Shown here in pieces: positions 24,079-53,921 of a stretch of 64,000 bases of DNA. Origin of the DNA: a virus (taxonomy: Duplodnaviria > Caudoviricetes); the IMG/VR virus record IMGVR_UViG_2930578203_000001, positions 32,001-96,000 of that record; one strand, written 5' to 3'. The notes under the pieces were generated by a model, which was not told the DNA's origin, searched no databases, and worked only from the letters and a program-made list of their open reading frames with translations. How positions within the stretch are numbered: position 1 is the stretch's first letter; each line of letters opens with the position of its first letter. The translations under genes and the position numbers were made by a program.

Positions 24079-24432
24079 GTGACTACTCAGCGAACCTCCT
24101 GGGCGCTCGCGCGTGAAGCCGCCGGCCTGTTCCTCACCGCGTTCGGCCTGCTCGGCGTCCTCGTGGCGTTGGGCGCACTCCACTGGGCCGCCGGACTCTC
24201 CACCGCGATGGCCGGCCTCCTCGCCACGGGCCTGCTCATGCGCCCGAAGCCGACCGCGGCACCCTGGGCGCACCTTGCCCGTGCCGCCGTCTGCATCCTC
24301 GGCTACGGCGGTCTCACCGGCTGCGCGTTCGCCCTCTGCACCCCCCTGGGCTGGATCGGCGTCTCCCTGGCGGTCGTGCTCCTCGGCCTGTGGCTCACCA
24401 CCCGTGAGCACGAGGACGAGGGGGCCCGCTGA
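24079..24432 (+). CDS. Small multi-TM membrane protein
   Basis: About four hydrophobic helices; stop overlaps the portal ATG. Confidence 0.7.
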   Translation: MTTQRTSWALAREAAGLFLTAFGLLGVLVALGALHWAAGLSTAMAGLLATGLLMRPKPTAAPWAHLARAAVCILGYGGLTGCAFALCTPLGWIGVSLAVVLLGLWLTTREHEDEGAR

Positions 24433-26891
24433 TGCCCCGCCAGTTCCTCCCCACGCTCCGGGGACTCCTCGTTCCGCGCTCCCCTGCTCCCCCACCCGCG
24501 CCAACCGCTGAGACCAAGGACCTGCTCGCGGGCAACGCCTACGTGTCGATGACGTACGCCGGCGTCACCAACGTGTGGGGCACGCCCGGCCGCGCGGACG
24601 GCTGGGACATGGAACGCGTCATCGTCGAGGGCTACGAACGCTCCATCTGGACCTTCAAGTCCATCGAGGCGATCAGTAAGCACGCCAGCACCCTCCCGAT
24701 CCAGATCGGCCGGGGCGGAGACGAACGGCGCTTCGAGGAGACCCTCGACGACCACCCACTGTTGAAGCTGCTCAACAAGAAGGCCAATCCGCTCGAGACC
24801 GGCGATGTCTTCAAGAAACGGCTGAGCGCACAGCTCCTTCTGTCGAAGAAGGGCGTCTTCATCGAGAAGACCTACAGCCGCGGCGGCAACCTCGTACGCC
24901 TCGACCTGCTTCCCCCTGACCGCGTCCAGATCATCCCGGACGACCGCAACGCCGACTACGTGAAGCACTTCGAGTTCACGGACTACAGCGGCCACGTCCG
25001 GGAACTGCTGCCCAAGCACGTCATCTGGATTCGCGACCCCCACCCTCTCGACCCCTTCTGCGGCGTCACCCCGCTTGAAGCGGCGGGCCTGTCCATCGAC
25101 CTGGACGTCAAGGCCCGCACCTACAACATCAGCTTTATTGACAATGACGGCAGACCGGGCGGAATCGTCGGTATCGACCTGGACGGAGTCGACCAGCGCG
25201 AAGTCGACCGCATCCAGAAGCGACTGGCGCCCGGCGCGCACAACGCTGGCCAGCTCACCCTCGTCGGCACCGGGCCCGGCGGAGTCACCTACGTCGACAC
25301 CTCCGCCCGCCCTCGCGAGATGGCCTACGAGACGCTGTCCGGCACCTCCAAGGGCGAGATCCTGGCCGCGTTCGGTGTCCCCGAAAGCATCGTCGGCAAC
25401 GCCTCCGAGCGGACCTACGCGAACGCTGACCGCGAGGAATACAACTTCTGGGACCACACGGAGCTGCCCCACCTCAACCTGATCGCCTCCGGGTTCGACC
25501 CGGACCTCGATGACGAGTGGATCGTCCGCTTCGACACCTCCAGTGTTCAGGCGTTGGAGTTCCCCCGCCGCCAGGCCCGCGAGGAAGCCCGCAAGGAGTG
25601 GGAAGCCGGCCTCATCACGATCGACGAGTACCGGGAGATCGCGGGTCGACCGGCATTCAACGTCCCACAGTCCCGGGCCCTTTGGATCTCTCCGCAGAAG
25701 GCCCCCGTACCCGCCAACGACCAGGACGCCGCCGCACTGGGCCTCGGTCCCGACCCGGCCGCGGGCGGAACACCCGGAGCCGCGCCCACCGGTGCCCCGC
25801 TCCCGCCGGGCACCGCTCCGGATACCGCGGCCGCCGACGTCGCCGCCGCCCGCGCTCTGGACGCTGGCCCGAGCGCCGCCGCGGATGTCGCCGCAGCGCG
25901 GGCGCAGGGCACGCCCCTCGCCCTGCCTGCCGGTTCGACGGCTACCGACGCCGTCGCCGCGGCCCGCGCCGCCACTACCGACAGCGGCCCCGGTGACGCG
26001 GCCGCCGACGTCGACCGCGCCCGCAGCACCCAGGACGCTGCACTCCCCGGCGACGACGCCGAGGACGTCGACGCCGCACGCGCCGCGGTCGAGACCAAGG
26101 CCCTGCCCGAGGACGACGGATACGAGGTCACTGACGACGACTTCGACGCTCTGTCCATGGCCGTGTCCGCGGCCGTCACCGCGCTCCTCGCACGCCAGGA
26201 AGGCGTCATACTCGCCCGGCTCCGCGCCCCGAAGATCCGCAAGTACACGAGGTACTGGGAGCCCGAGAACGACGACGACGTCCGGCACGTCGACGCCGAT
26301 CTCGACCAGGACCGTGTGGTCAGCGCCGCCCGCTGGGCCGAGGAGACCAGCCAATCCCTGACCCCGATCCTTCAGCAGGCGGCCATCGCCACGGCACGCA
26401 AGGTCGGCCAGGCCCTCACCGGCACGGACGAGGTCCCGCCGTCCGCGGCCGCGGCCGCCATCGTCACCGCGGCGTACGCCGGCGAGGCCATCACCGGATT
26501 CCTCACCGAACTCGCCACCGTCCTCCGCGACGCCCAGCACGACGCCGCTGATGTCGGCGACTTGGCGCACGCCGTCGTCAGGTACTACCACTCCGCAGAG
26601 CCTGTTCTGATCGCCCGCGTCGCCGAGACGTGCGCCGTGGCGACCATCAACGGCGCAGCGGACGCCGCGGCAGAGCACGCCGGTCCGCACGTCGTCCGGA
26701 CCTGGGTCACCCGCGCAGACAACCGAGTACGGCCCGCGCACAAGGCCCTCCAGGACAAGACGCTGCCGGTCGGCACCCCGTACACCATCGACGGCGCCAG
26801 CCTCCGCTACCCCGGCGACCCCTTCGCCCCGATCGCCCTCACGATCAACTGCCGCTGTCGCCTGCACTACGCCACCGACTCGAAGGAGTGA
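24432..26891 (+). CDS. Phage portal protein fused to a MuF (gpF)-like domain
   Basis: HK97-like portal motifs (HPLLKLLN, GVTPL, ILAAFGVP..IVG..TYAN, GLITIDEYR); C-terminal WVTRADNRVRPAH...LRYPGDP...INCRC. Confidence 0.9.
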   Translation: MPRQFLPTLRGLLVPRSPAPPPAPTAETKDLLAGNAYVSMTYAGVTNVWGTPGRADGWDMERVIVEGYERSIWTFKSIEAISKHASTLPIQIGRGGDERRFEETLDDHPLLKLLNKKANPLETGDVFKKRLSAQLLLSKKGVFIEKTYSRGGNLVRLDLLPPDRVQIIPDDRNADYVKHFEFTDYSGHVRELLPKHVIWIRDPHPLDPFCGVTPLEAAGLSIDLDVKARTYNISFIDNDGRPGGIVGIDLDGVDQREVDRIQKRLAPGAHNAGQLTLVGTGPGGVTYVDTSARPREMAYETLSGTSKGEILAAFGVPESIVGNASERTYANADREEYNFWDHTELPHLNLIASGFDPDLDDEWIVRFDTSSVQALEFPRRQAREEARKEWEAGLITIDEYREIAGRPAFNVPQSRALWISPQKAPVPANDQDAAALGLGPDPAAGGTPGAAPTGAPLPPGTAPDTAAADVAAARALDAGPSAAADVAAARAQGTPLALPAGSTATDAVAAARAATTDSGPGDAAADVDRARSTQDAALPGDDAEDVDAARAAVETKALPEDDGYEVTDDDFDALSMAVSAAVTALLARQEGVILARLRAPKIRKYTRYWEPENDDDVRHVDADLDQDRVVSAARWAEETSQSLTPILQQAAIATARKVGQALTGTDEVPPSAAAAAIVTAAYAGEAITGFLTELATVLRDAQHDAADVGDLAHAVVRYYHSAEPVLIARVAETCAVATINGAADAAAEHAGPHVVRTWVTRADNRVRPAHKALQDKTLPVGTPYTIDGASLRYPGDPFAPIALTINCRCRLHYATDSKE

Positions 26892-27957: not shown

Positions 27958-27988
27958 CGCGACGCTAACCACCTGTGCTGTGCATGGT
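27958..27988 (+). promoter_or_regulatory. Putative late promoter CGCGAC-N19-CATGGT
   Basis: ATG at 27996 lies 7 nt downstream (leaderless arrangement). Confidence 0.65.
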
Positions 27989-27995
27989 CCGCGCC

Positions 27996-30900
27996 ATGCT
28001 GAATCGCCCCAATGCACAGGCTGAGTCGCAGGACCTGAGTCGCGACCTCGAGGTCAAGGTCACGCGTCGGCCGTGGAACCCTGCTCTGCACCCCCGGGAC
28101 AGCAAGGGCCGCTTCATCGAGACCGGCGGGGTGGTGAGGACCTGGGGCGGCAAGCTCGCGCGCGTCATCCGCGCGCTCCCGCACGACCGCATCCTCGTCC
28201 AGGACCAGACCGGCCCGGACGAGTTCCGCGGCCGCAGGCACACCACCAGTGCCAAGTGGGTCAGCATGGTCGCGCGCCCCGACGGCAGCGCGCCCACCGA
28301 CGACGAAGAGAAGGTCGCCGAAGAGGACGAGCGGCGCACCCAGGACCCGCGCCGCGGCAACGGCGTTGCCCGCGACGACGACGGCGACCCCAACACCCCG
28401 AACGACCCGCACGACCAGGACGACAAGGGCCGCCCGATCGGCGAGGACGACGGCGACGGCCCGGACGACGATGACGACCAGGACGAGCCCGAGGACGGCG
28501 CCCACCCGGTCAACGTCGATGCCCTGCCGAACCAGCAGCACGCCGCCGGGGCCCGGTACGCCGATACCGCCGCCGTCCGCCGCCACTTCATGCAGGTTGC
28601 GGCCCAGCCCGGCACGAGCACGGACATGGCCACCTTCCTGCGCTCGGTGGCACACGACGACGACCTGCGGACCACCTCGTCCGGCCGACTCGTCATCCTC
28701 CTCGACGACCGGCCCGAGCACGCTGGCCGCTGGAACCTCACTGCAACCGGCTCCGGACAGCGCGTCGACGCCGCCGGCACCTTCGCCACCGCCGAGGACA
28801 CCGCCCGATTCGCCGAACACCTCGACAAGACCGCCGTGAACGGTCAGCTCACCAAGTTTCAGCAGCCGTTCGACTTCTCCGACCCGCAACTGGACCGGGA
28901 GGCCCGCGACTGGCGCTCCACCAGGGGCGAGAACATCCAGGGCGCTATCCAGCGGGCCCGTAAGGAGTTCGACGGCACGGACACCGCCCCGGCCTCCCCG
29001 AAGCCCGCACAGGCCCCCTCCGCCGCTGCCGCGGACGGACGGCGCTTCACCACCCTGCAGGACGTCCGCGCGCACTGGACTGACATGCGTACCCGCCTGA
29101 GCCAGGGCGGCCCCGAGACGCAGAACGCCGTGCGGATTCTGGACACCCTGATCAACGACGACCGGCTCAAGCTCGTAGGCCGTGGGCAGCTCGTCACGCG
29201 ACGAGACGAAAACGGCGACTGGCTCCTCGTCGCCACCGGCAGCGGCTACACCCTGCGCGGGCAGACCCTGCACCCCCGCTTCGAGTCGCAGGAAGAGGCA
29301 CAGCGCTTCGGCCGCTTCCTCGTCGCCTCCGGCATCAAGGGCGAGAACGGCGAGCCGCTGGACATGTCCCGCGGTGCCATCAGCCGGTGGCGCTCCGAGG
29401 ACAACCAGTCCTTCAGCGAGGTCGTCGACGAGGCTCTCGCCAAGTGGCAGAGGGAGCGCGGCGGAGACGCCCCGGCCGGACAGAACGCACCAGCGCCGGA
29501 CGCGCCGCAGGCCCATGACGAGACCGGCGCCCCTGCGCAGCCGGAGGCGGAACCCGCACCGGCCCCGGCCGTCCCCGAGGGTGCTAAACCCGTCGACGGG
29601 GTCGACGGCTACCACTACGTCAACGACGGCGGATCAATCACCCTGTATGGCCCCGACGGACAGGTCGCCGCGACCAGCGAGCGCGGCTACCCGCCGAAGG
29701 CCAAGATCGACGGCGTCACCGTGCCCGTCCCTCAGTACCCGAAGCAGGGCGCCGCGGTGATGGCCCGGCTGCACCGCGGCGCCCAGAACCCGGACCAGCG
29801 CGACCGGATCACCGCGGCGTGGGTGATGAAGCCCGGCAAGGACGGCAAGCCCGCCAAGCGGGTCATGGTCTTCCGCGGCACCATCAAGGGCGACGAGCGG
29901 GACTACGACGCCGTGGGCTCCACCCGCGCCATCAAGTGGGCCCCGTCCCTGCGGGCGTACTCGACCCAGTCGAACATGACCGAGGCCACGCGGGACGAGC
30001 GGATCTCCGAGGTCCTGTCCAAACTCGCCCGCCAGGGCCGCAACATCCACGTCACCGACGAGACCGCCGCGGGCAGCCCCGATGCACCGGCCAACGCCGT
30101 CGACGAGACCGAGGCCCTGCGCAAGGCCATCGCCAACGCGGACGACCCTCGCCTGTCGCAGTTGAAGTACGAGCGGTGGGCATCGCTCAACCGCACCCGC
30201 TCTGAGGCCAACCGCAAGCGTCTGAACTCTGAGATCGCAATGATCGACGACGAGTTGAAGCGCCGCCGAATCGAGCGGGACGAGGCCGCCGCCCGGGACG
30301 TCTCCTCGCTCAGCGACGACGACATCGCCAACCGCATCCGCGAGTCACAGGAGGAGCGCGGTACATACGGTGCCCGCAAGGGCCAGGACGCCAACGACGT
30401 CGAGCGGGCCATCTACAGCGAGCGCCGCCGCCGCTCGCAGGCCCTCGTCGACGACGACACCGACCTGACCACGGCCGCCGAGGACGACCTGGCCAAGGCC
30501 CGCGAGACCATCGCCGAACGCGTCCGCATGCACCAGGCCGCCGGCGACGACCCCGAGGCCGAGCGCACCATGCGCCAGGCCCTGCAGAACCGGCACGACG
30601 CCATCGTGGGCGAGCAGCAGAGCCGCCATGCCCAGAAGATCGCCGATCGGCCGCCGGTCGCCGACCTCACCGACGAGGAACTGTCGCAGGAGTACAACGA
30701 CTTGCTCCGGCGCGACTTCCGGAAGGCCCCTCCGGAGGCGCAGCAGGTCCTCGAGGGCCGCATGGAGGACGTCAAGCGGGAGCGCCGCGACCGGGAAAAG
30801 CGGGCCATCACCGACCGCGATGCCCCCGAGAACCTGAGCGATGAGGACCTGAAGGCGGAGTACACCGAGCTTCGCCGCACGCGCTCCTCGTACACCGGGA

Positions 30901-33900
30901 CCGACGACGTCAAGGCGGCCCGCAAGGAACGCATGGCCGCGCTGGAGGCCGAGCAGAACCGCCGCAGCTCCACGCCGGAGGTCGAGCAGCTCGTCGCCCG
31001 CGTCGACAACCCCGACGACAACGGCATGATCAGCATCGGCGGCGGCAGCGATTACGGCTACGTCGACTACCGGGACCAGACGCACGGGCACACGACCCGC
31101 GAGATCGGGTGGACCTGGGGCAAGCACAGTTGGGGGCACGCAGACACCGCCTATCCCTCCCGCGCCGCAGCTCTGGCAGCGATGGTCCAGGCGTACGACA
31201 ACGACCCCGACACCCGAGGTGAGCGCACCTGGGGCCGTAAGCGCCCCGTGTTCGTGCCGAAGATGTTCGTCGAGCTCTACCAGAACGAGCGTCTTCGCGA
31301 CCGGCTCGCCGGCGCCAGCGAGGAACGGCAGTACCTCTACAGCCTGTTCCGGGACCGGTACGGCTGGGACGACGGCGTGAACCCCCTGGTGCCCAGCAAC
31401 AAAAAGGGCCACCACATCAAGGGCCGGAAGCTGTGGGTGCCCGAAGGCCTCCTCGCCGAACTGAACCGGGTGACGGAGGAGCTGTCCCGGGACATGTCCG
31501 TGCGGGCCGCGGACCGGGACGCGGACAGTTCCGACCGCCAGAAGGCCAAGACCCGGCTCGCGTCCATCAACGTGGCTCTGCACGGCATTGAGGCGCAGCG
31601 CGAGTCAGTCCGCAAGAATGGCGGGGACGACGACCGAAAGGTCATCTCCCGCGAGGAGATCGAGGCACAGCAGGCCGCACTCCGTGCAGCGCTGGGAGGC
31701 GACGATGACGAACATGTTCAGTCCGATGGTCCGGGATCACTGGCGGACGTACCGGCCCAAGGAGTGGGCGGCGATGACCGATCCGGAGGCGTTCGTCGAG
31801 ACGAAGGCCAGGGAGATCGAGACTCAGATTCTCAAGGCCGAGGAGGCGCTGGAGAAGACCGTTCCGGAGCCGACGGAGTACGAGGAGCAGGTCGGCCGGC
31901 ACAAGCAGATCAGGGCGGACGCAACAGCGATGGTCCTGGCGGATCTTCTGCCGGAGCCGGAGCCCGAGGCGGAGAAGGCGCCGGAGCAGACGCCGATGGA
32001 GCAGCACCTGCAGGAGATCAGGGACCTGATGTACGACGCGTAGCGCGGTTCCGGCCTAACCCGGCCGACGCGCCCAAGGGCGCCCGCGCGCGTGCGACGG
32101 CCAACGTCGAGGCCATCCGCGTCCTCAAGAAGCTGGAGGCCGAGAACCGGCCGGCCACCGACGAGGAGCGCCGCATCCTCGCCCGCTGGTCCGGCTGGGG
32201 CTCGGTACCGATCCTCTTCGCCAACGAGCCGAACGAGAAGGAGCCCCGCTACCAGCAGGGCGGCACCCGGTACGGCAAGTTCGCCAAGGACCACGAGCGG
32301 TGGTCCGAGTACAGCGACATTCGCAGCGAGCTGCAGCGCGTGCTCACGCCTGTGGAGTTCCGGCAGGCATCCCGCGGCGTGCTGTCCATGCACTACACGC
32401 CGCAGCCCATCGCCGAGGCGATGTGGGAAGGCCTTCGGGCATTCGGCTTCGACCGCGGCGACGTCCTTGAAGCCGGCTCCGGCGCGGGCACTTTCTTCGG
32501 CGTCGCTCCGGACGGCGCCCGCCTGACCGGCGTCGAACTGGACCCGACCACGGCCCGGATCGCTCAGGCGATTTACCCGCATGCCAACGTCCTCAACGAG
32601 TCTTTCGCGGAGACCGACGCCCAGCCGGGCACCTTTGACGCCGCCATCGGCAACGTGCCCTTCGCCCGGGTCCCGTTCGATGACAAGCGGTACCCGGCAG
32701 AGAGCCTTCACAACGGCTTCGTCACCAAGGAGATCGCCCTCGTCCGGCCCGGCGGCATCACCGCCGTCATCACCTCCCGCCAGACCCTCGACTCCAAGGG
32801 CGACAAGGCCCGCCGCCAGATGGCCAAGTACGGCGACCTGGTCGGCGCCGTGCGCCTGCCCTCCGGCGTCTTCACCGACGCCGGCACCGGGGTCACCACC
32901 GACGTCCTCGTGTTCCGCCGCCGCGAGGACGGCACCGAGCCGGCCGACACGTCATGGCTGGACGCCCCTGAGCGGGACATCAACGGCACCGCACACCACA
33001 TCAACGCCTACTTCGACGAGCACCCCGAGCACATCCTCGGCACGCTGACCATGCAGTCCGGCCCGTACGGGCCCGAGGTGACCGTCAAGGGCGACCCGGC
33101 CAAGGCCGCCGAGCAGCTTCGAGCCGCGCTCGACGACATCGCCACCAAGGCGAAGGCCGACGGCCGCGGCTACGAGCCGCACCCCGACGGCGACAACCGG
33201 CCTCCGGTACAGCTCCAGACGGCCCGGGAGAAGCACGCGAACGACTGGACCGGCCGCCTCTACGAGGGCGATGACGGCCAGTTTTACCAGCACGTCAACG
33301 GTGCCGAACCGGTCCTGCTGGAGCCCGCCGACGGCAACACCGCCCAGCTTCGCGGCCTCATGCAGCTCCGCGACGTCGCCGCCGAACTGCGCGAACTGGA
33401 CCGGAAGAACGACGAGGAGGAGCGCGCCGAGGCTCTGCGCGCCCAACTCCGCGACCTGCACGCCGCCTACGTCGCCGAGTACGGCCCCCTGTCCAAGCCG
33501 GGCCAGCACCGCACCCAGGGCGGCCGCCCGACGGCGTGGGGCTACTTCCGGGCCGACCCGGACGCCGCGGCAGTCCTCGCTCTGGAACGGTGGGACGCCA
33601 ACAAGGGCGAACCCGTCCTCTCCCGCGTCTTCACCGAGCGCGCCGCGGCCCGTCGACAGCCGCTCTCCTCGACCAACGATCCGAAGGCGGCCCTGGCCGC
33701 GGTCGTCGCCGCCAAGGGCGAAGTGGACCTCGGCGAGATCGCCCGGCTTCTCGACGTCACCCCGCAGGAAGCGGTGAAGCGCCTCGGCAACGAGGTCTTC
33801 ACCGACCCTGAGACCGGCCGCCTCGAGCTGGCCAGCGCCTACCTGTCCGGCGCCGTCCGCGACAAGCTCGACGCCGCCCGCAAGGCCGCCGAGCGCGACC

Positions 33901-36900
33901 CGGCGTATGCGGTCAACGTGGCCGCGCTGGAGGCCGTTCAGCCGCCGGACCGCACCATCGGCCAGTTCACCCCGGAGATGGGCGCCCACTGGACGCCGCC
34001 GGAACTTCTACAGGGCTTCCTGCGCGAGTACCTGGGCGACCGCACACTCCGTGTCGCGCATGACGACCGGTACGGCTGGATTCTCAACACCGGCCGCGTG
34101 CCCGAGGCCAACAACGTCATGTACGGCGTTCCGGCCGTCGAGCCCGACCCGGATAACGGCATCAAGGGCAACAAGGGCAAGAACGCCGTGGAGATCGCCC
34201 GCGCGATCCTCGGCTTCGGCTCGCTGACCGTCTACGAGGACGACAAGCGCAAGGAAGTCGACGAGGCGACCTCCCGTCTGATCCGGCAGAAGGCCGACCA
34301 GATGCGGGCCGAGTTCGCCAAGTACGCCACGGCGAACGCTGATCGGCTGAGCGTCCTCACCGACTCGTACAACCGCATCATGAACGGGCACATCGTCCGT
34401 TCGTACGAGGGCATGTCGCCCACGCTGGAGGGCTTCACCCCCGACCGGAACCCCCACCCCTGGCAGCGTTCCGGCGCGGCCCGGATGCAGTTCGAGCGGG
34501 GCGTGATCCTCGCCCACGAGGTGGGCCTCGGTAAGACGTCCACGCTCGTCATGGGTACCCAGGCCCTCAAGGCGTCCGGGCAGATCGAGAAGCCCATGGC
34601 CGTGGTGCCGAACCACCTCGCGCGCCAGTGGTACAACGAGGCCCGGTGCCTGTACCCGAACGCCGATATCCACCTGATCACCTCGGCGGACCTGGCCGGC
34701 GACCGGCGCGGCAGCACGCTGGAGTGGCTGCGCGCCAACAGGCCGGATCTGGTGATCTTCACTGAAGAGGCGTTCGGCTCGATCAAGATGAGCCCGGAGG
34801 CTCAGGACGAGTACGAGTTCCGGGAGCTGGAGGCGCTGCGCGAGCAGCTTGACCGCCAGTACGAGGACGCCGACAACCCGAACCACCCGTTCATCGTCGC
34901 GAAGATCGAGCAGCGCATTGCGACGGTCAGCAAGAACATCAACAAGAACGCCGCCCCGATGCGGCGACCGGGTGAGACGTACTGGGACGACCTCGGATTC
35001 GACTACTTCGTCGTCGACGAGGCTCACCGGTACAAGGGCGTTGGCTTCCGCTCCAAGGAGGGTGGCGGCGACAAGGCGTCCATCCGCGGCGTCGACCTGC
35101 ATCAGAAGACGAGCGACCTGCACCGCCGCCGTCAGGGCCGTGCCACGATCACGCTCGCCACCGGTACGCCGCTGTCGAACAGCATCAGTGAGCAGTTCAC
35201 CATGCTGATGTTCGCGGCGCCGTGGGTGCTGGACGCCTACAAGGCGGGCGCCCCCGACCTGTGGGCCAACACCTTCGGTCGCAAGACCCTGCGCATCGAG
35301 AACGCCCCCGACGGCTCCGGCCTGCGCGTCGTGGAGCGGTTCTCCGAGTTCCACAACAAGCGCGCCATGAAGACCATGTGGGGCCTGGTCGCGGACACCA
35401 AGCGCGGTGACGACGTCGGCATTCCCCGTCCGAAGCTCAGGGGCGGCAAGCCGAACCTGATCATGGTCGACGCGACGCCCGACCAGAAGAAGCGTCTGAA
35501 GGGGCTCGTCGCCCGCGGTCGCGCGATCCACAACGGTGAGGTCGACCGCCACCAGGACAACATGCTCGCGGTGTCCAACGAGGGCACCAGCGTGGCCCTC
35601 GACCCGCGGCTCATCGACGCCAAGGCCCTGGCCGGCAACAAGCTGAAGGCCGTCGCGGACCGGCACATCGAGCGCTACCACCAGCACAAGGACCGGCTCT
35701 ATCCGGTCGCCCTCGACAGCCTCGTCAACCACCCGGTTCCGGGTGCTCTCCAGATGATCTTCCTGAACGAAGGCGTCCCGGGAGGAAAGAACAAGGGCAA
35801 CTTCGACGCTTACGCCGAACTCAAGCGGCTCATGGTCGCGGGCGGCATCCCCGCGGACAAGATCGCCTTCGTCCAGGACGCCAAGAAGTCCGGCAAGCCC
35901 GAGGACATGACGGAGCTGTTCCGGAAGGCCCGCGAAGGCGAAATCGCGGTCCTCATCGGCTCCAGCGCCGTCGCGGGTACGGGCATGAACGCCCAGGACC
36001 GCATGATCTCCCTCTCGCACGTCGACCTCGACTGGGGCGCCGCGCAGATGGAGCAGCGCAACGGCCGCATCCTGCGGTACGGCAACCTGAACCCCGAAGT
36101 CGAGATCGACATCTACGCGACCAAGGGCTCCATGGACGGCTGGAAGGCCGGATTCGTCGCAGCCAAGGCCGAGGGCTTGATCGACATTCAGCGGCCGGAG
36201 CCGGAAGACGGCGACTCCAGCGACGTTGTCCAGGAGATCGACGGCGCCGAGTTCGACTACGAGACGATGGAAGCCGAGATCGGCGGCAACCCCTTCATGA
36301 GCCAGCTCATGAAGGCGAAGCGCCGTCTCAAGGATCTGGAGATCGACCAGCACAACGAGGCCGCCGAGCGTATCCGCCGCGCCGAAGCCCTCGATGCGCT
36401 GCGCCAGGAATCCCAGGCCACCCGCGACGGCATCCACCGCCGCGAGCAGGCCCTGCCCCGCATCCAGGAGGCCGACGACCGGTTCCGTATGACCATTGGC
36501 GGCTCCCCGTACGGCGAGCGCTCCGACGCCGGCAAGGCCCTGCACCGCCAGATCACCTCCCGCCTCCTGGAGCACAACCGCGAGGGCCTGAGTGACTGGC
36601 ACATCCTTGGCCAGTTCCGCGGCTTGGACTTCGGTGTCCGCACCGAGAAGACAGCGGACGGCAAGCTCGTCGCGCACGTCGGCTTCCCCGACCTGCGGCA
36701 GTCCGACTTCGAGCGGACCGTGGAGGACTTGCAGAAGAAGGGCGCCGGGTCGGGCATGATCACCCGCCTCGGCAACGCCCTCGACAAGGCGCCCGCGTTG
36801 CAGGAGTCGGACCGGGCCAAGGTGCCGGAGCTGGACGAGCAGATAGCCCTGCTCCAGTCCGCGCACGCGGCCGCAGACCTCACCCCGCAGATCGACCACG

Positions 36901-39900
36901 CTCGCAAGCGGTCGAACCTGCTCGAGGAGATCGTCGCCCGCGTCACCAACCTGGACGCGAAGCCGGAGATCGACCCCGACGAACTCGACAAGGAGCGGTA
37001 CAAGAACAAGGACGACCGCGAGAAGATCGCCAAGGGGCGGCGCGAGGAACGCGAGCCGCTGCAGGCCGCCGTCGACGAGGCCGTCGCGAACCTGCACCGC
37101 TGGGACGAGGAGAACCCGGCACCGGAGCAGGACGACACGGTCCGCCTCTCCGAGGACGAGGTGCGCGAAGCCCTCGCCCGCCTCAGCCCGGAGCCCAGCA
37201 CCACCCCGCAGCCGGACGCCCCGGAGACCAGCGACCGCAGTTCCGAGGACGCCGACACCGACGTCGACGAGCCGAACACCGCCGAGACGGAGACACCTGA
37301 GACCACCGGCGGGGGCAGCAGCGACGAGCCGCCGGCCGACACGCCAGCCGCGGACGACACCGGCGCCCAGAACGACGGCCAGGACCAGGACGACGTCGTT
37401 CGCCTCTCCCAGGACGAGGTGAACGACACCCTCGCCAGCATCCAGCCGGACGCCGACACGACCGCCACCGACGAGCCGGACGAGCCCCTGCGGTACGCGT
37501 GGGACAAGCCCGAGGACTTCGTCACCCTGACCATGCCGGCCGCACTCGCCGACTTCCTCAACGTCGACGAGACCGCCGCCATGGAGGACCCCGACACCCG
37601 GAAGGCCCTCAAGGAAGCCACGCCAGGCCGCCGCGGCACACTCCAGGTGACCGGCCCGATCGAGGTACACCGCGCCCTCCTCCAGTGGGCATGGACGCTC
37701 GAGGGCGGCGAAGGCCTTGAGTCCGACCCCAGCGAAGTCCGGGCCTACAAGGCGTACGCCAAGCGCATCGACGAGGCAGACGCCGACCTGCAGCGCCGTC
37801 GCGCCGAGCGGGAGGCCGCGGCCGCCGCGGACACCGATGAGAACGACAGCCCGGACGCCGACAGCACGAACGACGGCGGCAGCGACGAGCCGCCGACCGA
37901 TGCCCCCAGCACGGCTGAGCCGGACGGCGAGGACGACCAGGACCAGAGCACCGACGAAGACACGGAGGCCAGCGACACTGTCACCCTGACTCCGGACGAG
38001 GTGTCCGACCAGCTCGACGCTGTACGCCCGGAGGGGTCCAAGGCTCCGTCCTCGATGGACGATGGCGAGATCCGCGACGAGATCGTCGACCTGATGGGCC
38101 GGGAGATGGCGGATGAGCTGTCCGGCGCGGACCACACCCGCCTGCAGGTCCTGCTAGCGGAGGAGGCCCGCCGTGCCGGCCGGGCCCCGAAGCAGGAGCC
38201 CAAGCCGAAGAGGACGACCGAGGAGCCCGGCGGACTCTTCGACGTCGACCAGCCCACCACCCAGCAGCCGAGCAGCGCCGCCGACGTCGACAACCCCGAG
38301 GACCAGCCCGACGACCTCTTCGGCACGCCGGACATGATCGCCGACGCCGAAGGCCGCAGCACCGAGGGCCTGCGCCCGGCGCGCATGCGCAACGCCGCCG
38401 ACCTGAAGCAGGGTGACCGGTACACCGACGCAGACGGCCGCACGCACACCGTGTCCGAGCCGCCGGTCAAGACGCCTCGCGGCCGGACCCGCATCGTCAC
38501 CGACGACGGCGAGGAGCGCTTCTACAACGCCGACGCCCAGGTGCGCCTGCGCGACCCCGACGAGGAGATCCCCGAGAACGAGACCGACGAGCGGTCCGCC
38601 GACGACGATGCCGACAACACCCCGGATGTCGACGAACCGGAGACCTCCGAGCCGGACGTCGACGAACCGGAAGCCACCTCCGACAGCAGCAGCACCAAGG
38701 ACCGCGCCGACCGCATGACCGGCCTCATCGACCAGGCCACCGACGGGGCAGGCGGTGACGAGCTGCCCGAGGTCAGCGAGGTCCGTGATGCGTTGGGCAG
38801 GGCCGAGGACTCCGACGACCCGGACGCCGAGCTCCGTTCCGCCGCCGACCGGCTCGACGACCTCGCCGAGATGTACGAGCTGGGAGGCCCCGAGGGAGAA
38901 CGCGCCGCAGACCTGTTCCGGCAGGCCGCCCGCATCGCGAGGGGTGAGGACGAGGACGATCGCCGCGGCGACGACAACGACCGCAACGAGGACGACAGCG
39001 AAGCCCCCGACGCTACGAACCAGGACTCCGAAGAGGACCAGGACGACGACGAGGAACGCCAGCAGCGTCGGAACGGGGACGCGGACAGCGACGCCGCCGA
39101 CCCGGACGGCGCCCCCGACGGAGGCGGCGCCGGTACCCCGGACACTCCTGCCGACAACGAGGACGAGGCCGGCAACCCCGACGATGCGCCCGACAACTCC
39201 GACGACGAGCAGGACGAGCCGGAGGCCGAGAAAGACGACGAGCAGGACGACCGCAACCGGCGTCGTCGCCGGCGTCGCCGCAACGGCGGTGGCGGCAGCG
39301 GCGGTCCCGGTGGCCCCGGCGGGCCCGGCCTGCCGCACCTGAACCTGCCCGACCTCAACACGCCGGACGCCGGAGGCGCCGACGGCAATGGGGACGGCGA
39401 AGACGGCCGCGGCACGCGCGACCGCGGGCGGACCCCTATGCGGCACCGCGACGTCGATTCGCTGCGCCGCGCCTGGAAGAACGGCGATGGGCTCACCCCT
39501 GCCGAGGAAACTCCGCAGCGGCGCGAGGCCCTGTCACAGGCGGCCGACCGGGACGGCTTGGCTCTGTCCCCGGGTGGGGGCCTGGTGACGTGGCCCGAAC
39601 AGCAGGAAGACGGCACCACCTTGTGGCGCTTCGCCCAGGCCCGCAACGGCGCCAACCTGACCGGATTGACCCTGACGACCGAAGACCCCGAAGAGGCCCG
39701 CGCGCTCGCAGGCCGCTTCGAGGAGATCACCGGTCGCGACGGGCAGCCCTTCGACTGGCAGCAGGCGTGGGGCCCGAGCACCGTGGGGCAGTGGCGCGAC
39801 GGGGAGGGCCGCAACCTGCAGCGGGCACTCCAGGCCGTCCTCGACGACTTCGAGCAGCAGCGGGCCGCCGCCGCCCAGCCGGAGCCGGCGCCGGAACGGA

Positions 39901-42900
39901 GGGCGCTGCCGGGCGACCTCACCGGCCTGGAAGACGACGAGCTGGTCGACGCGTGGAGCAACGACCTCAGCGACGAGGACCAGAAGCGCCTTATGGCGGA
40001 GATGGACCGCCGCGACGGCTACACCGACCAGCGCGTTCGTGACGTGCTGCCGGACACCCCGCCGGCCGACGCCGAAGAGGCCGAGCGCCGCGCGAAGGCC
40101 GTCGACGAGGCCCTCGGCTTTGGGGGCGCCGACGTCCCGCGCGTGCGCCGAACCCGTGAGGACATCATCCGTGCGGAGTTCGCCGACTTCGACGAAGCCC
40201 GCTACCAGGCCGCCATCGACGCCACGAACGGCTACTTCTACGCCCGGAAGTACAAGTACGGCAGCGGCATCAACGAACGAGACTTGTTCTCCGGTGGTGC
40301 ACTCGCGAAGCTCAACCTCTGGGAGAAGTACGCCAGCGAGGAACTGAAGGACTGGTACAAGGCCAACGGCGGTCGCATCACGTACAACCAGTTCCGGCAG
40401 ACCTACCGGGACAACGACCGCCAGGACCGGCAGCAGTTCGAGGAGGAGCAGCGCCGCCAGGCGGAAGCCGGGCAGACCGAGGAGCCCACCACCCCGGAGA
40501 CCGAGCCGTACGACCCGGCCACGCCGCGCTTCGCGGACGAGGCGACCCTTCGGGACCACATCCGCAGCGGGCAGCTCGACGAGGTGCCCGAGGAGCAGCG
40601 TGGAGACGTGCCCTCAGCCGAGGAACGCGCGGAGATCGCCGATGCCGAGAGCACCCAGCTCTCCGACGGCGGCCGACTCCTCATCTACGGCAACGAGGCC
40701 GGTCGCGCCGGCAGTCGCAGCGGGCAGCGGTTCGACGTGGCCCTTCCGGGCAGCATGCAGCCCCTGTTCCGAAGCGGCTTCCACAGCGCCGCGGAAGCCC
40801 GCCGCTACGCCAGCGTCCTCGACGGCATCAAGGACACGGACGGCAACGCGTTCCCGTGGGATGCCCCCGACGTCGCCGACCGCGCCCGCGCGTTCCGGAC
40901 CGCCGACGGCAACCGCCTGTTCGACGAGATCACGGAACGCCTGTACGGCTTCAACGACCTCTACGAGCCGTGGAACAGCGACCGCGGCCAGGCATTGCAC
41001 CACCGGACGTGGAGCCAGCAGGAAGCCGACTGGAACACCCGCGAGGAGGAAGCCGGTTACTCGATCCCCATCGACCTGACGGACATCCGTCCCGGTGACG
41101 AGATCAGCTTCCCCGTGGCCACGAGCCGCGGACAGAACACGCGGCCGCAGGACGAGTACGTGGGAACCGTGCACGCCACGGTGAGCGGCGAGGGAGAGCC
41201 CTTCCAGTACCGCTCGCAGTTCTCCGCCTTCGGGAACCAGCAGCTCTACCGGTTCCCGGCCGAAGGCTCCTGGATCAACCAGTACGGGGAGCACACCGAG
41301 ATCGACGAGGCGTTCCCGAACCTGGGTGTCGTCCGCCGCCGCCCGCGGCCCGACGAGGTGTCCAGCACGGCTGACGACCGCGACGACCGTTCGTCCCGCG
41401 CGGACACCCCGCAGGCGGAGACGCCGGGCACCGCGACGCCCCCCGCGCGCCAGCAGCCCGCCCCGGACCGCGCTCCTGCAGAGCCGGAGCCCGCCGCGCC
41501 CTCGGCGCCGGCCGACCAACCGCAAGGTGAACCCGATCCCGTGGGCGGTCAGCCCGCACACTGGGCGCGCGTCCGCGACCTGGTGCAGGGCGACATGGTC
41601 CGTATGGAGGGCCGCACCAGTAACGGCCGCGCCATCACGCGGTCCGGCTACGTCTTCACCGGGCCCGTCGACGTGGAGGTCACCCGCAACGGCCGCACGG
41701 AGCGGATGCTGCGCACGTACGTCACGGAGAACCCGGACGGCACCGGGAAGCGTGGCAACGTCTTCACGCCGCTGAACGCCACCGCGGCGCGGGCCGAGAC
41801 GCCCGACGACGTGGTGCCCGGGTCGCCGACCAGCGGCGCTCAGAGCGCCGTTCAGGCGGGCAGCCTCCCCGACCTGGTCCCCGCGGACCGGAACGGCCGG
41901 GGCTTGTTCCCGGGCAGCACCGTCACCGGCGTTGACGGGCTGCGTACCCGTGAGGGCACCGTCACGGGCGCCACCAGCACCACGGTGTCGGTGCGCTGGG
42001 ACAACGACGACACCGCCGACGGACTCTCTCCGAACACCCTCACCGTGACCGGTGGCGACCGCCCCGACGGCTGGACCTCATCCGGGCAGCGCGTGACCCC
42101 GCGGCACATCGTGACCGACACCGAGGGCGCTCTCCTCGGACCGGTCGACGAGGTCAACGGCGACCGCGTCACCATCACCACCGCCGAAAGCACCATCACA
42201 CGGAGCGCCGGAGACCTCCGCGTCGCCGGCGAAGTACGCGACGACGCCCCGGGCACCGACCCCGTCACCGGCATCGACGACCCGGCGGCCGCGGACCTCA
42301 AGGAGGACGACGTCCTGGTCCTGGACCTCGACGGCACGCCCACCACCGTGGCGGTCACCGGTATCCACCGCGAAGGCGACCGCGTCACCATCGACTTCGC
42401 CGACACCACCACAGGCGAGATCGGCCAGATCGACGTGGACGCCTCCCAGGTCATCCCCCGGGCCCAGGGCGCCGACGACACTCCGCCCGACCTCGGGCCG
42501 GACGACGCCCCGGACGCCCCGGACGACCTGACCGTGCACGAGCCGCCGCACCGCGTCGAACCCGTCACCGGCCCGACCGTCGACCCCGACCTAACGATGG
42601 GCGACCGAGACGTCATCGGTGACCTCGCCGACGGCCCGGACGACGACCCCGACGCCCAGCAGGCCGCCGTACGCATCACGGCCGACCTGCCCGTCCCCCC
42701 GGAACAGGCCGCCGCACTCGCCGCGCAACTCCGCGATTCCGCCGACCCCTCGACCCCGGAGGGCCGCGCCGCCCTGCGCGCCGCCAACCACCTGGACCGG
42801 GCCATCGGCCGGACCCCTCCGCCCGAGCTCAACCGGCCGCGGCCGTCGAACGCCGCACAGGTCGCGGAAGACGACACGATCGCCATACCCGACAACCAGG

Positions 42901-48206: not shown

Positions 48207-48431
48207 GTCGCACGACCCGGTCTCACCCCTGCTCCCGCACCCTGTGCGCGTCATCCCGAAAAACCGCAGGTCAAACCTATGCGCTGCCCGCTCTTGACTC
48301 CCTGAGCGGGCAGCGCGCGACGTTAACCCCTCTCTCCCTCTTCACTCCCGCCTGGCGTTGAGGCTGTCCCGGTGCTGGCCGGGCGGAGCGACGCACGTCA
48401 ACCGCACCCCAGCACCAGGGAGAGAGCAGCA

Positions 48432-49721
48432 ATGCCCGACAACGCTCGCATCGAGGAACTGCAGAAGCAGCTCCAGGCCAAGAGCGCCGAGGCCGAGGAG
48501 ATCAGCAAGTCCTTCAAGGTCGAGGACGGCGGGTTCGTCGTCTCCACCGAGCAGGCAACCAAGTTCCGCAAGGTCTCCAGCGAGGCGCAGGAGATCAAGG
48601 CGCTCATCGACGCCGAGCAGGGCCTGGTCGAGATCAAGCAGTACCTCGACGCCCCGGAGACCACGCCGGCCGCGGCCGCGCACTACGGCAAGACCCCGAC
48701 CATGGAGGAGAAGTCTCTGGGCGACATGTTCGTCGACTCCGACTCCTTCAAGCGCGCCAGCGCCGCAGGCTTCGACGATCGCCCGTACATCCGCGCCGCG
48801 ATGGAAGGGAAGTCGATCTTCTCCCTGAGCGCCGGCACGGTCACGCACCAGACCCTCGGCAGCGTCCAGAACCTGGGCATCGCCGAGCGGGCCTACCGCA
48901 AGTGGCACATCCGGGACCTGTTCCCGAAGTCCTCGACCAAGCAGGCCGTCCTCTACGGCGCCCGGGAGACCGGCTGGACGAACAACGCGAGGCAGGTCAA
49001 GGAACGCTACGGCGCCGACGGCACCAGCCCGGCGACCGGCGCGGACACCGACACCTGGGGCCGCGCGCCTCGGTCGAAGCTGGCCCTGACCCCGGTGATG
49101 TACCCGGTCGCCGAGGTCGCGCACCTGATCGACGCGCACAAGAACATCCTGAGCGACGAACCGAGGCTCAAGACGTTCATCAACGGGCGCATGGTCGAGG
49201 GCGTCAAGTACCAGGAGGACTGGGACCTGCTCCACTCCGTCGGCGACGGCCAGTCCCTCACCGGCATCTACAACACCCCCGGCGTTCAGCAGTACACCGG
49301 GTTGGCGACCGACAAGTACTCGGTCCAGATCCGGCGTGCCATCACCAAGGCGCTCCTCGCCGAGTACGAGCCGACCGGCATCGTCCTGTCGCCCACGATG
49401 TGGGAGCACGTCGAGGTCGAAGAGGACGACAACGGTGCCTTCCGCGTCGCCATCGCCGTGGCCATCGGCGCGGAGAAAAAGGTCTGGCGCCTGAACGTCG
49501 TCGAGACCACGGCCATGTCGGATGGGGACTTCCTCATCGGCGCCTTCGGCCTCGGCGCGCAGCTCCACGACAGGGAGAACGTCAGCGTCACCGTCTCGTC
49601 GGAGAACGCCGACAACTTCGAGAAGGGCCTGATCACCTTCCGCGCGGACGAGCGCCTGGCGCTCGAGGTCCCGCGGCCGGAGAGCTTCGTCATAGGCACC
49701 TGGACCACTCCGACTGGCTGA
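48432..49721 (+). CDS. Major capsid protein (HK97 fold, N-terminal delta domain)
   Basis: Coiled-coil N-terminus; IRDLFP; LTGIYN; NFEKGLITFRADERLALEV.RPESF. Confidence 0.92.
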   Translation: MPDNARIEELQKQLQAKSAEAEEISKSFKVEDGGFVVSTEQATKFRKVSSEAQEIKALIDAEQGLVEIKQYLDAPETTPAAAAHYGKTPTMEEKSLGDMFVDSDSFKRASAAGFDDRPYIRAAMEGKSIFSLSAGTVTHQTLGSVQNLGIAERAYRKWHIRDLFPKSSTKQAVLYGARETGWTNNARQVKERYGADGTSPATGADTDTWGRAPRSKLALTPVMYPVAEVAHLIDAHKNILSDEPRLKTFINGRMVEGVKYQEDWDLLHSVGDGQSLTGIYNTPGVQQYTGLATDKYSVQIRRAITKALLAEYEPTGIVLSPTMWEHVEVEEDDNGAFRVAIAVAIGAEKKVWRLNVVETTAMSDGDFLIGAFGLGAQLHDRENVSVTVSSENADNFEKGLITFRADERLALEVPRPESFVIGTWTTPTG

Positions 49722-50756: not shown

Positions 50757-50771
50757 CCCCGTCCCTCCAGT

Positions 50772-51719: not shown

Positions 51720-51729
51720 GGATCTCCTT

Positions 51730-53335: not shown

Positions 53336-53413
53336 AACCGCGGGCGCGACCGTAGCGCTCTCCGTCCCCCATCCTTCCGCGGCCACCACACCGGAAGCAG
53401 CGGAAGGAAACCC

Positions 53414-53875: not shown

Positions 53876-53887
53876 GGACGAACACGC

Positions 53888-53921
53888 AAAGAGCCCCGGG
53901 GCTTGGGCCCGGGGCTCTTTT
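53888..53921. terminator. Bidirectional intrinsic terminator
   Basis: AAAGAGCCCCGGG-N7-CCCGGGGCTCTTTT. Confidence 0.85.

What the first reader, a model, noticed from the sequence alone, without database searches (positions are those of the whole stretch)
31705..32043. TnpV-like gene fully nested inside the giant methyltransferase-helicase ORF
Seen: a 112-aa +1-frame ORF with a GGGAGG RBS and globular, helical sequence (HWRTYRP..W....DPEAF...YEEQVGR...IRA.A...VL). Across exactly this interval the giant's frame degenerates into G/D/R-rich filler, and the nested stop falls just before the MTase region begins. From recall: small TnpV-like genes occur next to DarB-like helicase-methylase genes in mobile elements. 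Inference: the giant arose by read-through fusion across an intact partner gene, giving true same-strand overprinting.
Basis: partly seen in the sequence, partly recalled or inferred. Interest (0 to 1): 0.8.

Follow-up and report, generated by a model that had tools for sequence, protein, structure and literature searches.

The report
Small gene hidden inside giant gene
A small, well-conserved gene related to TnpV is written in a second reading frame inside the flexible linker of a giant phage and plasmid anti-restriction gene, and the same two-in-one arrangement recurs in mobile elements of very different bacteria.

Summary
Window 31705-32043 is an intact 112-codon ORF in the +1 frame of a 5686-codon ORF (27975-45035). 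It has a GGGAGG Shine-Dalgarno 5 nt upstream. Across this interval the GC-by-codon-position signal switches from the giant frame to the nested frame.

The nested protein is real. It is conserved in 35 aligned Streptomyces and Actinacidiphila sequences, folds confidently (pLDDT 90), and is a remote relative of Pfam TnpV (hhalign 96.8%).

The giant frame is also kept open. It covers the nested ORF in 40 of 40 loci. No T-ending nested codon precedes a codon that would create a giant-frame stop (0 of 1160, against 166 of 2841 elsewhere).

The arrangement is not local. Among 80 viral contigs encoding the same methyltransferase module, 63 carry a TnpV or TnpV-like ORF: 65 hits, all in frame +1. These include 34-56% GC contigs, where a chance-open giant frame has median probability 0.0015. 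Cultured Vibrio, Agrobacterium, Klebsiella, Erwinia, Microcystis and Burkholderia phages show it too.

So this is true same-strand dual coding, and it is old and widespread, not a recent read-through fusion. The small protein's function is unknown. I found no published description.

The parts
27975..45035 (+). Giant ORF of 5686 codons (frame 0): a DarB-like, polyvalent methyltransferase-helicase protein
   Evidence: ORF list. Pfam Eco57I, SNF2, ResIII and Helicase_C hits. phrog_10089 'DarB-like antirestriction', E 2.8e-267.
27975..31704 (+). N-terminal module of the giant (1243 aa), frame 0, normal coding signal
   Evidence: GC by position 0.70/0.46/0.92 over 30000-31600. Only a weak DUF6158 hit. 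No PHROG or NCBIfam hit.
31694..31699 (+). Shine-Dalgarno GGGAGG of the nested gene, 5 nt before its ATG
   Evidence: Sequence. An SD-like motif stands upstream of the nested start in 34 of 36 Streptomyces-type loci. AAAGGAG- or AGGAGG-type motifs occur in most of the low-GC loci.
31705..32043 (+). Nested ORF in frame +1: a 112-aa acidic helical protein, remote relative of TnpV
   Evidence: Translation. Frame-specific GC. 35-sequence alignment with 19 invariant columns. AF2 pLDDT 90.1. Profile search: 687 representatives. hhalign to TnpV 96.8%.
31690..32043 (+). Overlap zone read in the giant frame: G/D/A/R-rich linker with no coding signature of its own, but kept free of stops
   Evidence: 0 of 1160 stop-creating contexts used. 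Giant-frame dN/dS 1.3.
32043..34300 (+). N6-adenine methyltransferase module, starting with RFRPNPAD directly after the nested stop
   Evidence: Alignment A5 with invariant N..PF and GxG motifs. Pfam Eco57I. PHROG DNA methyltransferase families.
34470..36084 (+). SNF2-type helicase module
   Evidence: Pfam SNF2-rel_dom, ResIII, DEAD and Helicase_C at residues 810-1347 of the translation that starts at 32043.
24432..26891 (+). Portal protein with a MuF-like C-terminus, upstream neighbour in the head module
   Evidence: Pfam Phage_portal 5.2e-42; Phage_Mu_F weak.
46287..49721 (+). Prohead protease (S78) fused to NUDIX, then the major capsid protein, downstream neighbours
   Evidence: Pfam.

Best explanation
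One stretch of DNA (about 31690-32043) encodes two proteins on the same strand.

1. Frame 0. Ribosomes that start at 27975 read straight through the stretch. They produce a G/D/A/R-rich, presumably disordered linker that joins the 1243-aa N-terminal module to the methyltransferase-helicase part of a giant DarB-like (polyvalent) protein. That protein is encoded in the head module of a Streptomyces provirus.

2. Frame +1. Ribosomes that bind the internal GGGAGG start at ATG 31705. They make a free 112-aa acidic, all-helical protein of the wider TnpV superfamily, ending at TAG 32041-32043, just before the methyltransferase module begins.

The nested frame dictates the nucleotide sequence. The giant frame tolerates whatever amino acids result, but it is kept free of stops and frame-breaking indels.

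The arrangement is an old module that travels with the methyltransferase-helicase pair through phages, phage-plasmids and conjugative plasmids of several phyla.

Shown here: both frames are open and conserved, selection acts on both, there is an internal start signal, and the distribution is wide.

Inferred: internal initiation, and translation of both products.

Guess (about 30%): the acidic small protein works with the giant. It could act as a chaperone or DNA-mimic-like shield of the giant's DNA-binding modules before packaging or transfer. The overlap would then guarantee co-inheritance and co-expression.
For: Nested frame is coding:
- The GC3 switch (nested position-3 GC is 0.89-0.98 in 38 loci).
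- The ORF is intact in all 35 aligned sequences, with 19 invariant columns.
- Nested-frame dN/dS is 0.53, against 1.3 in the giant frame, over 170 pairs.
- AF2 pLDDT is 90.1.
- The profile search finds 687 representative proteins at E<=1e-3, and the best 150 are all 75-331 aa.
- Bona fide stand-alone TnpV genes exist.
- Nested ORFs in 5 of 10 low-GC viral loci score 106-140 bits on Pfam TnpV.

Giant frame is maintained:
- It covers the nested ORF in 40 of 40 loci, while the third frame does so in 0 of 40.
- It runs more than 2500 codons in 34 of the 40.
- The chance of an open giant frame is 0.12-0.58 per Streptomyces locus.
- T-ending nested codons occur 0 of 1160 times before AA/AG/GA-starting codons, against 166 of 2841 elsewhere.
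- Nested-frame dS is 0.17 in the overlap, against 0.33 in both flanks.
- 17 of 36 loci, the window included, have no frame-0 ATG, GTG or TTG within 90 nt of the nested stop, so the methyltransferase part has no start of its own there.

Wide conservation:
- All six non-Streptomyces genome loci are +1 with the methyltransferase frame open upstream.
- A Brucella pseudintermedia plasmid giant is +1.
- Of 80 viral loci found with the methyltransferase module alone, 63 have a hit: 65 hits, all in frame +1 and none in the other five frames.
- 63 of the 65 hits are covered by an open frame-0 ORF. For the 22 loci with GC <= 0.56 the chance probability has median 0.0015 and maximum 0.14.
- The nested ORF is the longest or near-longest +1-frame ORF in low-GC giants.
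- Phages VvAW1, Atu_ph08, LASTA, PEp14, Mwe-JY07 and Stean are all +1 inside annotated giants of 3640-4985 aa (frames by my arithmetic on the listed coordinates). Bcep22 gp75 is also +1.

Internal start:
- An SD-like motif plus ATG or GTG in 34 of 36 loci, and in most of the low-GC loci.
Against: - There is no expression data. No RNA run holds the stretch, and neither Ribo-seq nor peptides were available, so translation of each frame is inferred.
- Nested-frame dN/dS (0.53) is only moderately low. Differences are spread 1873/1722/2221 over nested codon positions, not strongly third-position biased. This fits dual constraint but is weaker than for an ordinary gene.
- In high-GC DNA the giant frame would often be open by chance (0.12-0.58). 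The Streptomyces loci are related, so they are not independent trials.
- Two natural sequences join the small ORF in frame to a neighbour: P0082 to the methyltransferase, and PBC5 orf33 to the upstream module. The domain can therefore exist as part of a larger chain, and a frameshift product cannot be excluded.
- P1 darB, a Thermus phage and a Bacteroides phage DarB-like gene show no nested hit, and 17 of 80 viral loci show none. The giant does not need it.
- The iterated profile was trained on its own hits.
- The 80 loci are the best 80 of 415 candidates by likeness to my query alignment, not a random sample.
Confidence: 0.8

Rival explanations
1. Programmed frameshifting, not (or not only) internal initiation. 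Ribosomes reading the giant frame shift +1 near 31700 and make an N-module-TnpV-like fusion that ends at 32043. Alternatively, ribosomes in the nested frame slip -1 near its end and make a TnpV-like-methyltransferase-helicase fusion.
For: Both fused architectures exist once each in nature. PBC5 orf33 (2185 aa) runs from the upstream module into the TnpV-like ORF. P0082 runs from the TnpV-like domain into the methyltransferase start. From recall, SD-like sequences upstream of shift sites stimulate frameshifting in prfB and dnaX.
Against: No X_XXY_YYZ heptamer is in phase in the nested frame in any of 36 loci. The giant-frame codons around the nested start are ordinary GAC/GAT/GGC/GAA codons, with no stop. 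An ATG or GTG stands exactly at the N-terminus of the conserved domain, with SD spacing typical of initiation, across phyla. The nested C-terminal helix is conserved up to its stop. PBC5 differs from its relative Atu_ph08 by a frame change about 20 codons upstream, which looks like an indel or a sequencing error rather than a design.
Confidence: 0.1
2. The giant ORF is an artefact of open frames in high-GC DNA. In reality there are three genes (N-module, small gene, methyltransferase-helicase), and the linker is never translated.
For: In 69% GC DNA the frame whose first position is the coding third position is often open (23% for the window). The linker has no coding signature in the giant frame.
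Against: The upstream module has no stop, and the downstream module has no start codon within 90 nt in 17 of 36 loci. Both modules are always in the same frame (40 of 40). The same structure holds in 34-56% GC loci, where the chance of openness has median 0.0015. A passage of PMC9144972 reports the 4515-aa DarB-like protein of phage JC1 among virion proteins found by mass spectrometry. Its supplements, which might show peptide coverage, were not seen.
Confidence: 0.04
3. The nested ORF is a non-functional shadow: a by-product of a conserved giant-frame sequence, or a decaying relic.
For: The window protein has no direct Pfam, PHROG or NCBIfam hit and no structural neighbour.
Against: The coding signature lies in the nested frame, not the giant frame. 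The giant-frame translation is low-complexity. The nested frame is intact in every locus examined apart from one shortened copy (L007, 90 aa). Relatives exist as free genes. The predicted fold is confident.
Confidence: 0.03

Closest known systems
TnpV of Tn4451 and relatives (Pfam PF14198)
   Same: A small protein of about 110-120 aa with its own start, carried by mobile elements. Collinear profile-profile match over 86 columns, 96.8% probability. Bona fide TnpV ORFs are themselves nested +1 in giants in low-GC phage contigs.
   Different: The window protein does not reach the Pfam threshold. It lacks the N-terminal 'YxxxGDY..P' part of canonical TnpV. It is strongly acidic (pI 4.5, against about 6 for canonical TnpV). 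Stand-alone TnpV lies beside serine recombinases. One passage (PMC3158075) says TnpV was 'postulated to be involved in excision' on likeness to lambda Xis. No function has been shown.
DarB of phage P1, and the 'DNA methylase-helicase dyad' of polyvalent proteins (PMC5512222, passages seen)
   Same: An N6-methyltransferase plus SNF2 helicase in one large protein of phages and conjugative elements. It is encoded in a virion or transfer module and annotated as anti-restriction.
   Different: P1 darB shows no nested TnpV-like ORF. The polyvalent-protein paper has no occurrence of 'overlapping' or 'frameshift'. The window giant has 1243 aa upstream and about 2300 aa downstream with no family hit.
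comS inside srfAB of Bacillus subtilis (recalled, no call)
   Same: A small gene with its own ribosome-binding site, embedded out of frame on the same strand within a very large multidomain gene.
   Different: From recall, comS is confined to close relatives of B. subtilis and overlaps a catalytic domain. Here the overlap sits in a linker and is shared across phyla.
Rz1 embedded in Rz (phage spanins)
   Same: A complete phage gene embedded in the +1 frame of another; both products are made. The embedded class of Rz1 is mentioned in a passage of PMC9144972.
   Different: Rz and Rz1 are two small partners of one complex. Here the host gene is a 3600-5800-codon giant, and partnership between the two products is not shown.

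Membership tests
TnpV (Pfam PF14198) | Scores above the Pfam gathering threshold (27 bits) | tested here: not met
   P0001 has no TnpV hit at E<=10. 43 of 150 family members hit only below threshold, best E 1.7e-5. Nested ORFs of five low-GC loci score 106-140 bits.
TnpV (Pfam PF14198) | Homology detectable by profile-profile comparison | tested here: met
   A3 (150 sequences) against six bona fide TnpV: 96.8%, E 3e-10, 86 columns. The narrow Streptomyces profile A2 gives only 2.5%, E 0.019.
TnpV (Pfam PF14198) | Context beside a large serine recombinase, as in Tn4451-type elements | tested here: not met
   The window neighbours are portal, protease and capsid genes. The recombinase context was seen in phage phiNJ3 only.
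DarB-like / polyvalent methyltransferase-helicase proteins | N6-adenine methyltransferase motifs followed by an SNF2 helicase in one chain | tested here: met
   Invariant GxG and N.PF columns in A5. Pfam Eco57I, SNF2, ResIII and Helicase_C. phrog_10089, E 2.8e-267.
DarB-like / polyvalent methyltransferase-helicase proteins | Packaged into virions or transferred, and protects incoming DNA from restriction | not testable with these tools
   Only the position between the portal and the protease/capsid genes, and a passage on phage JC1 virion proteomics.
Same-strand overlapping (dual-coding) gene pair | Both frames open and conserved beyond chance across relatives | tested here: met
Same-strand overlapping (dual-coding) gene pair | Selection visible in both frames | tested here: met
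   Nested dN/dS is 0.53. Nested-frame dS is halved relative to the flanks (0.17 against 0.33). Giant-frame stops are avoided, 0 of 1160. The giant-frame amino-acid sequence itself is not conserved (dN/dS 1.3).
Same-strand overlapping (dual-coding) gene pair | Both products made | not testable with these tools
   No RNA holder was listed. No proteomics was available.
Programmed ribosomal frameshift site | Slippery heptamer, or a stop or rare codon at the shift site, conserved among relatives | tested here: not met
   0 of 36 loci have an in-phase X_XXY_YYZ heptamer. No stop in the giant frame near the nested start. Only canonical motifs were searched.

The most novel reading that the evidence does not exclude
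The TnpV or TnpV-like ORF embedded in frame +1 of DarB-like polyvalent giants is an ancient dual-coding module. It is shared by phages, phage-plasmids and conjugative plasmids of Actinomycetota, Pseudomonadota, Cyanobacteriota and low-GC bacteria. If so, it is one of the most widely conserved same-strand overlapping gene pairs in prokaryotic mobile elements, and annotation pipelines have missed it systematically. The overlap itself would be functional: it locks a small acidic partner protein to the anti-restriction giant genetically, and perhaps translationally.
Probability: 0.65. Interest if true: 0.9.

Novelty: new variant of a known kind. Interest (0 to 1): 0.85.

Why it matters
Long, conserved same-strand overlaps are thought to be rare in bacteria and their phages, and most proposed cases are young and disputed. 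Here the overlap is supported by frame-specific composition, by selection on both frames, and by recurrence across phyla and GC contents.

It hides a whole protein family inside genes that annotation shows as single 'DarB-like antirestriction', 'PLxRFG' or 'hypothetical' giants. As a result the small protein is missing from the phage and plasmid records that annotate only the giant.

The case offers:
- a clean system for studying how a disordered linker can host a second gene;
- a new candidate player in anti-restriction and establishment biology;
- a warning for domain surveys, since PBC5 orf33 carries a stretch that is out-of-frame coding in its relatives and this has entered a PHROG profile.

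Several cultured phages carry it, so it can be tested directly.

Tried and rejected
Structure neighbours. Foldseek of the AF2 model against PDB (best E 5.3) and BFVD (best E 2.3) gave nothing usable.

Direct family hits for P0001. Pfam, PHROGs and NCBIfam gave none.

Longer fused forms. The search for homologous proteins with 'longer' found none at E<=0.001, which the tool itself rates as weak evidence.

A 'shadow' Pfam family for the giant-frame linker. None was found in five giants.

P0001 against the phage collection. No match.

The apparent in-frame TnpV-like end of phrog_938. This traces to one protein, PBC5 orf33, which differs in frame from its relative. I therefore do not count it as a common architecture.

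The 'stand-alone' copies L002 and L015. They are remnants that still carry flanking fragments of the giant, so I do not count them as free genes.

Expression. No RNA holder was listed for window 30500-33500.

Literature. Searches found no description of a nested TnpV. Passages of PMC5512222, PMC3158075 and PMC9144972 were read. Supplements are closed and could hold peptide maps of DarB-like proteins.

Complex prediction of the small protein with the methyltransferase module could not be run.

The phylum sample (8 of 401 genomes with a match) includes one unpublished genome, G270 (L043). Only that tally rests on it; its locus was not analysed.
Full report
1. THE OBSERVATION

The window holds a 5686-codon ORF at 27975-45035 on the + strand. 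Inside it, offset by +1, lies an ORF from ATG 31705 to TAG 32041-32043. It encodes 112 residues. GGGAGG stands at 31694-31699, 5 nt before the ATG.

GC content by codon position makes the frame switch plain. The giant as a whole reads 0.74/0.49/0.90. Between 31705 and 32043 its three positions read 0.91/0.66/0.38. In the nested frame that is 0.66/0.38/0.91, the ordinary Streptomyces coding pattern.

A scan of the entire giant finds only this one strong switch, at 31575-32144 in 15 consecutive windows. The three other spots are marginal.

In the giant frame the interval is 27% Gly, 16% Asp, 14% Ala and 11% Arg. Directly after the nested stop the giant frame reads RFRPNPAD...ANVEAIRVLKKLE...WSGWG. 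This aligns with the start of the methyltransferase module in unrelated elements.

2. CONTEXT

The window is part of a 121,298-base record classed as a provirus, about 93% complete. The gene order around the giant is:
- a portal protein with a MuF-like tail (24432-26891);
- the giant;
- an S78 prohead protease fused to NUDIX (46287-48206);
- a major capsid protein (48372-49721).

After the overlap the giant carries an Eco57I-type N6-methyltransferase and an SNF2 helicase. It matches phrog_10089, 'DarB-like antirestriction', at E 2.8e-267. It is thus one of the large 'polyvalent' methylase-helicase proteins of phages and conjugative elements (PMC5512222, passages seen).

3. THE NESTED FRAME ENCODES A REAL PROTEIN

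tblastn against plasmids found eight homologous places. A scan of one genome per species found 32 loci in Streptomyces and Actinacidiphila.

In all of them the nested frame is intact. The 35-sequence alignment runs from 33 to 99% identity to the window protein. It has 19 invariant columns and only codon-sized indels. Nested third-position GC is 0.89-0.98 in 38 loci.

An SD-like motif plus ATG or GTG precedes the conserved N-terminus in 34 of 36 loci.

AlphaFold2 on this alignment gives a confident all-helical model: pLDDT 90.1, with helices at 6-16, 18-23, 27-52, 59-81 and 97-111. The model has no neighbour in PDB or BFVD.

A profile search of 1.84 billion representatives returns 687 proteins at E<=1e-3. 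The best 150 are all 75-331 aa, and the domain is mostly at residue 1. These database proteins may themselves be gene calls on short contigs, so they do not prove that the gene stands alone.

The family is strongly acidic: median pI 4.5 and net charge about -11.

4. RELATION TO TNPV

The window protein has no Pfam hit to TnpV. Of 150 family members, 43 hit PF14198 below threshold. A profile of the 150 matches six bona fide TnpV sequences with 96.8% probability over 86 columns. The narrow Streptomyces profile alone does not (2.5%).

'TnpV-like' is therefore fair as a superfamily statement, not as Pfam membership.

A truly free TnpV gene lies beside two recombinase genes in Streptococcus phage phiNJ3. 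One paper passage says TnpV of Tn4451 was only postulated to act in excision (PMC3158075).

5. THE GIANT FRAME IS ALSO MAINTAINED

In 40 of 40 loci, the window included, the frame one base upstream of the nested frame is open across the whole nested ORF. The third frame never is. In 34 of the 40 the open frame runs for more than 2500 codons.

The six shorter cases are:
- two remnants with flanking fragments of the giant (L002, L015);
- a fragmented Ruania plasmid gene (L006);
- three giants that stop further downstream (L024, L029, L034).

I resampled synonymous codons of each nested protein with local codon usage. This leaves the giant frame open in only 12-58% of trials per locus.

More telling is which codon contexts are used. 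A giant-frame stop needs a T-ending nested codon followed by a codon that starts AA, AG or GA. Such T-ending codons occur 0 times in 1160 such contexts, against 166 times in 2841 harmless contexts.

Over 170 sequence pairs of 80-97% identity:

| Region and frame | dN/dS | dS |
|---|---|---|
| Overlap, nested frame | 0.53 | 0.17 |
| Overlap, giant frame | 1.3 | 0.084 |
| Upstream flank, giant frame | 0.34 | 0.33 |
| Downstream flank, giant frame | 0.19 | 0.33 |

So the nested protein is under purifying selection. Its silent sites are additionally constrained. The giant's linker sequence is free as long as it stays open.

In 17 of 36 loci, the window among them, there is no frame-0 start codon within 90 nt of the nested stop. 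The methyltransferase-helicase part can therefore only be made by reading through.

6. THE ARRANGEMENT IS OLD AND WIDESPREAD

Genome sample. In a sample of 401 genomes of the phylum, 8 had a match (one of the 8 is an unpublished genome, which I did not analyse). In every other actinobacterial locus examined the small ORF is again +1 to the methyltransferase-helicase ORF, whose frame is open upstream through it. This includes a 45% GC genome.

In the simplest forms the giant starts only about 40-90 codons upstream of the small gene, with a short conserved N-terminal peptide.

A Brucella pseudintermedia plasmid has the small ORF +1 inside a 4953-aa 'PLxRFG domain-containing protein'.

Viral contigs. 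To sample without reference to the small gene, I searched viral contigs with the methyltransferase module alone. There were 415 candidates, and the best 80 were kept. An iterated profile run over all six frames of the 80 loci gave:
- 65 hits in 63 loci;
- every hit on the same strand in frame +1;
- no hit in the other five frames.

Of the 65 hits, 63 are covered by an open giant frame. For the 22 loci with GC <= 0.56 the probability of that by chance has median 0.0015 and maximum 0.14. In these low-GC giants the nested ORF (93-199 codons stop to stop) is the longest or near-longest +1-frame ORF, against medians of 11-26 codons.

Five of ten nested ORFs tested are bona fide TnpV at 106-140 bits. 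These lie 1.6-2.9 kb upstream of the methyltransferase, after a domain that looks ArdC-like to my eye (from recall; no call tested it), and again in a low-complexity stretch of the giant frame.

Cultured phages. Frames are my arithmetic on the listed coordinates.

| Phage | Result |
|---|---|
| Vibrio VvAW1, Agrobacterium Atu_ph08, Klebsiella LASTA, Erwinia PEp14 and Stean, Microcystis Mwe-JY07 | Small ORF +1 inside annotated giants of 3640-4985 aa |
| Burkholderia Bcep22 gp75 | Small ORF +1 |
| Pseudomonas Itty13 | Both frames open; annotated genes lie on the other strand |
| P1 darB, a Thermus phage, a Bacteroides phage | No hit |

In addition, 17 of the 80 viral loci show no hit. The module is common but not universal.

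7. RIVAL READINGS

Frameshifting. Two sequences carry the small ORF in frame with a neighbour:
- P0082, a 331-aa protein, runs from the TnpV-like domain into the methyltransferase start.
- PBC5 orf33 runs from the upstream module into the small ORF. It does so because its frame differs from that of Atu_ph08 from about 20 codons before the nested ATG, while the usual giant frame stays open beside it.

This one protein also explains why phrog_938 matches the small ORF at its C-terminal end.

I found no in-phase slippery heptamer in 36 loci and no stop in the giant frame at the nested start. Start codons and SD motifs are conserved. I therefore rate frameshifting at about 10%, possibly alongside internal initiation.

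Three separate genes. This would need stops and starts that are absent, and it fails in low-GC DNA.

A non-functional shadow ORF. This is contradicted by composition, conservation, the predicted fold and free relatives.

8. HOW IT LIKELY WORKS

Shown: two conserved, selected reading frames on one strand, and an internal start signal.

Inferred: the giant's mRNA is read by two sets of ribosomes. One set makes the full-length giant with a disordered linker. The other starts internally and makes the free 112-aa protein.

Because the nested frame sets codon positions 2 and 3 of the giant frame, its Glu/Asp/Ala-rich sequence forces Gly/Arg/Asp/Ser-rich filler on the giant. That is tolerable only in a linker. 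This explains why the overlap ends exactly where the methyltransferase begins.

The small protein's function is not known. It is acidic and helical, and it is fixed to anti-restriction giants that bind DNA. My best guess, at about 30%, is a partner that shields or escorts the giant. The co-fold test was not available.

9. NOVELTY

Eight literature searches and passages of three papers gave no description of this overlap. The polyvalent-protein survey never uses 'overlapping' or 'frameshift'. A 2022 paper on a Bcep22-like phage describes the giant and an embedded Rz1, but no gene inside the giant. In every cultured-phage and plasmid giant record I fetched, only the giant is annotated over the nested ORF.

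Overlapping genes as such are known; from recall, comS in srfAB and Rz1 in Rz. I therefore class this as a new variant of a known kind. It is unusual for its depth of conservation, its host gene and its place in a linker.

Noticed in passing
L053, L054, L006 (frame 0, upstream of the nested ORF): Minimal giants begin with a conserved N-terminal peptide, 'M..K....QPDLFSLFD'. From recall it resembles a beta-clamp-binding motif. It lies about 40-90 codons before the nested ATG.
   Followed up: no
L143 (Pseudomonas phage Itty13, NC_070969 5548-8823): The annotated CDSs lie on the strand opposite to the open giant frame and the nested TnpV-like ORF. This is probably a strand mis-annotation.
   Followed up: partly
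L150 (Sinorhizobium phage PBC5, AF448724 23739-28963): orf33 (2185 aa) runs in frame into the TnpV-like ORF because of a frame difference from Atu_ph08 about 20 codons upstream. This single protein puts a TnpV-like stretch at positions 2084-2161 of phrog_938 'endolysin'.
   Followed up: yes
L051 (G297:C7:141000-160900), 8437-8778 and 9050-9340: There are two TnpV-like copies. One is free, directly upstream, in the giant's frame and closed by a single stop. The other is nested +1 in the giant, which here starts only about 90 codons before it.
   Followed up: partly
L007 (Streptomyces sp. NBC_01232 plasmid), 5974-6246: The nested ORF is shortened to 90 aa by a deletion that keeps the giant frame open.
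   Followed up: no
window 46287-48206 and 24432-26891: The prohead protease (S78) is fused to a NUDIX domain. The portal carries a weak MuF-like C-terminal match.
   Followed up: no
window 50001-54000: GC drops to 0.54-0.61 against about 0.69 elsewhere. No ORF with the usual GC3 pattern was found there.
   Followed up: no
window 8774-10777 and 19725-20498: An FtsK/SpoIIIE-family protein (Tra-like) and a DDE transposase lie upstream of the head module.
   Followed up: no
L096 8031-8312; L148 9118-9499: Further TnpV copies lie outside a giant. One follows the giant's stop in a viral contig. One is in two frame pieces beside tet(O) in a Streptococcus suis phage.
   Followed up: no
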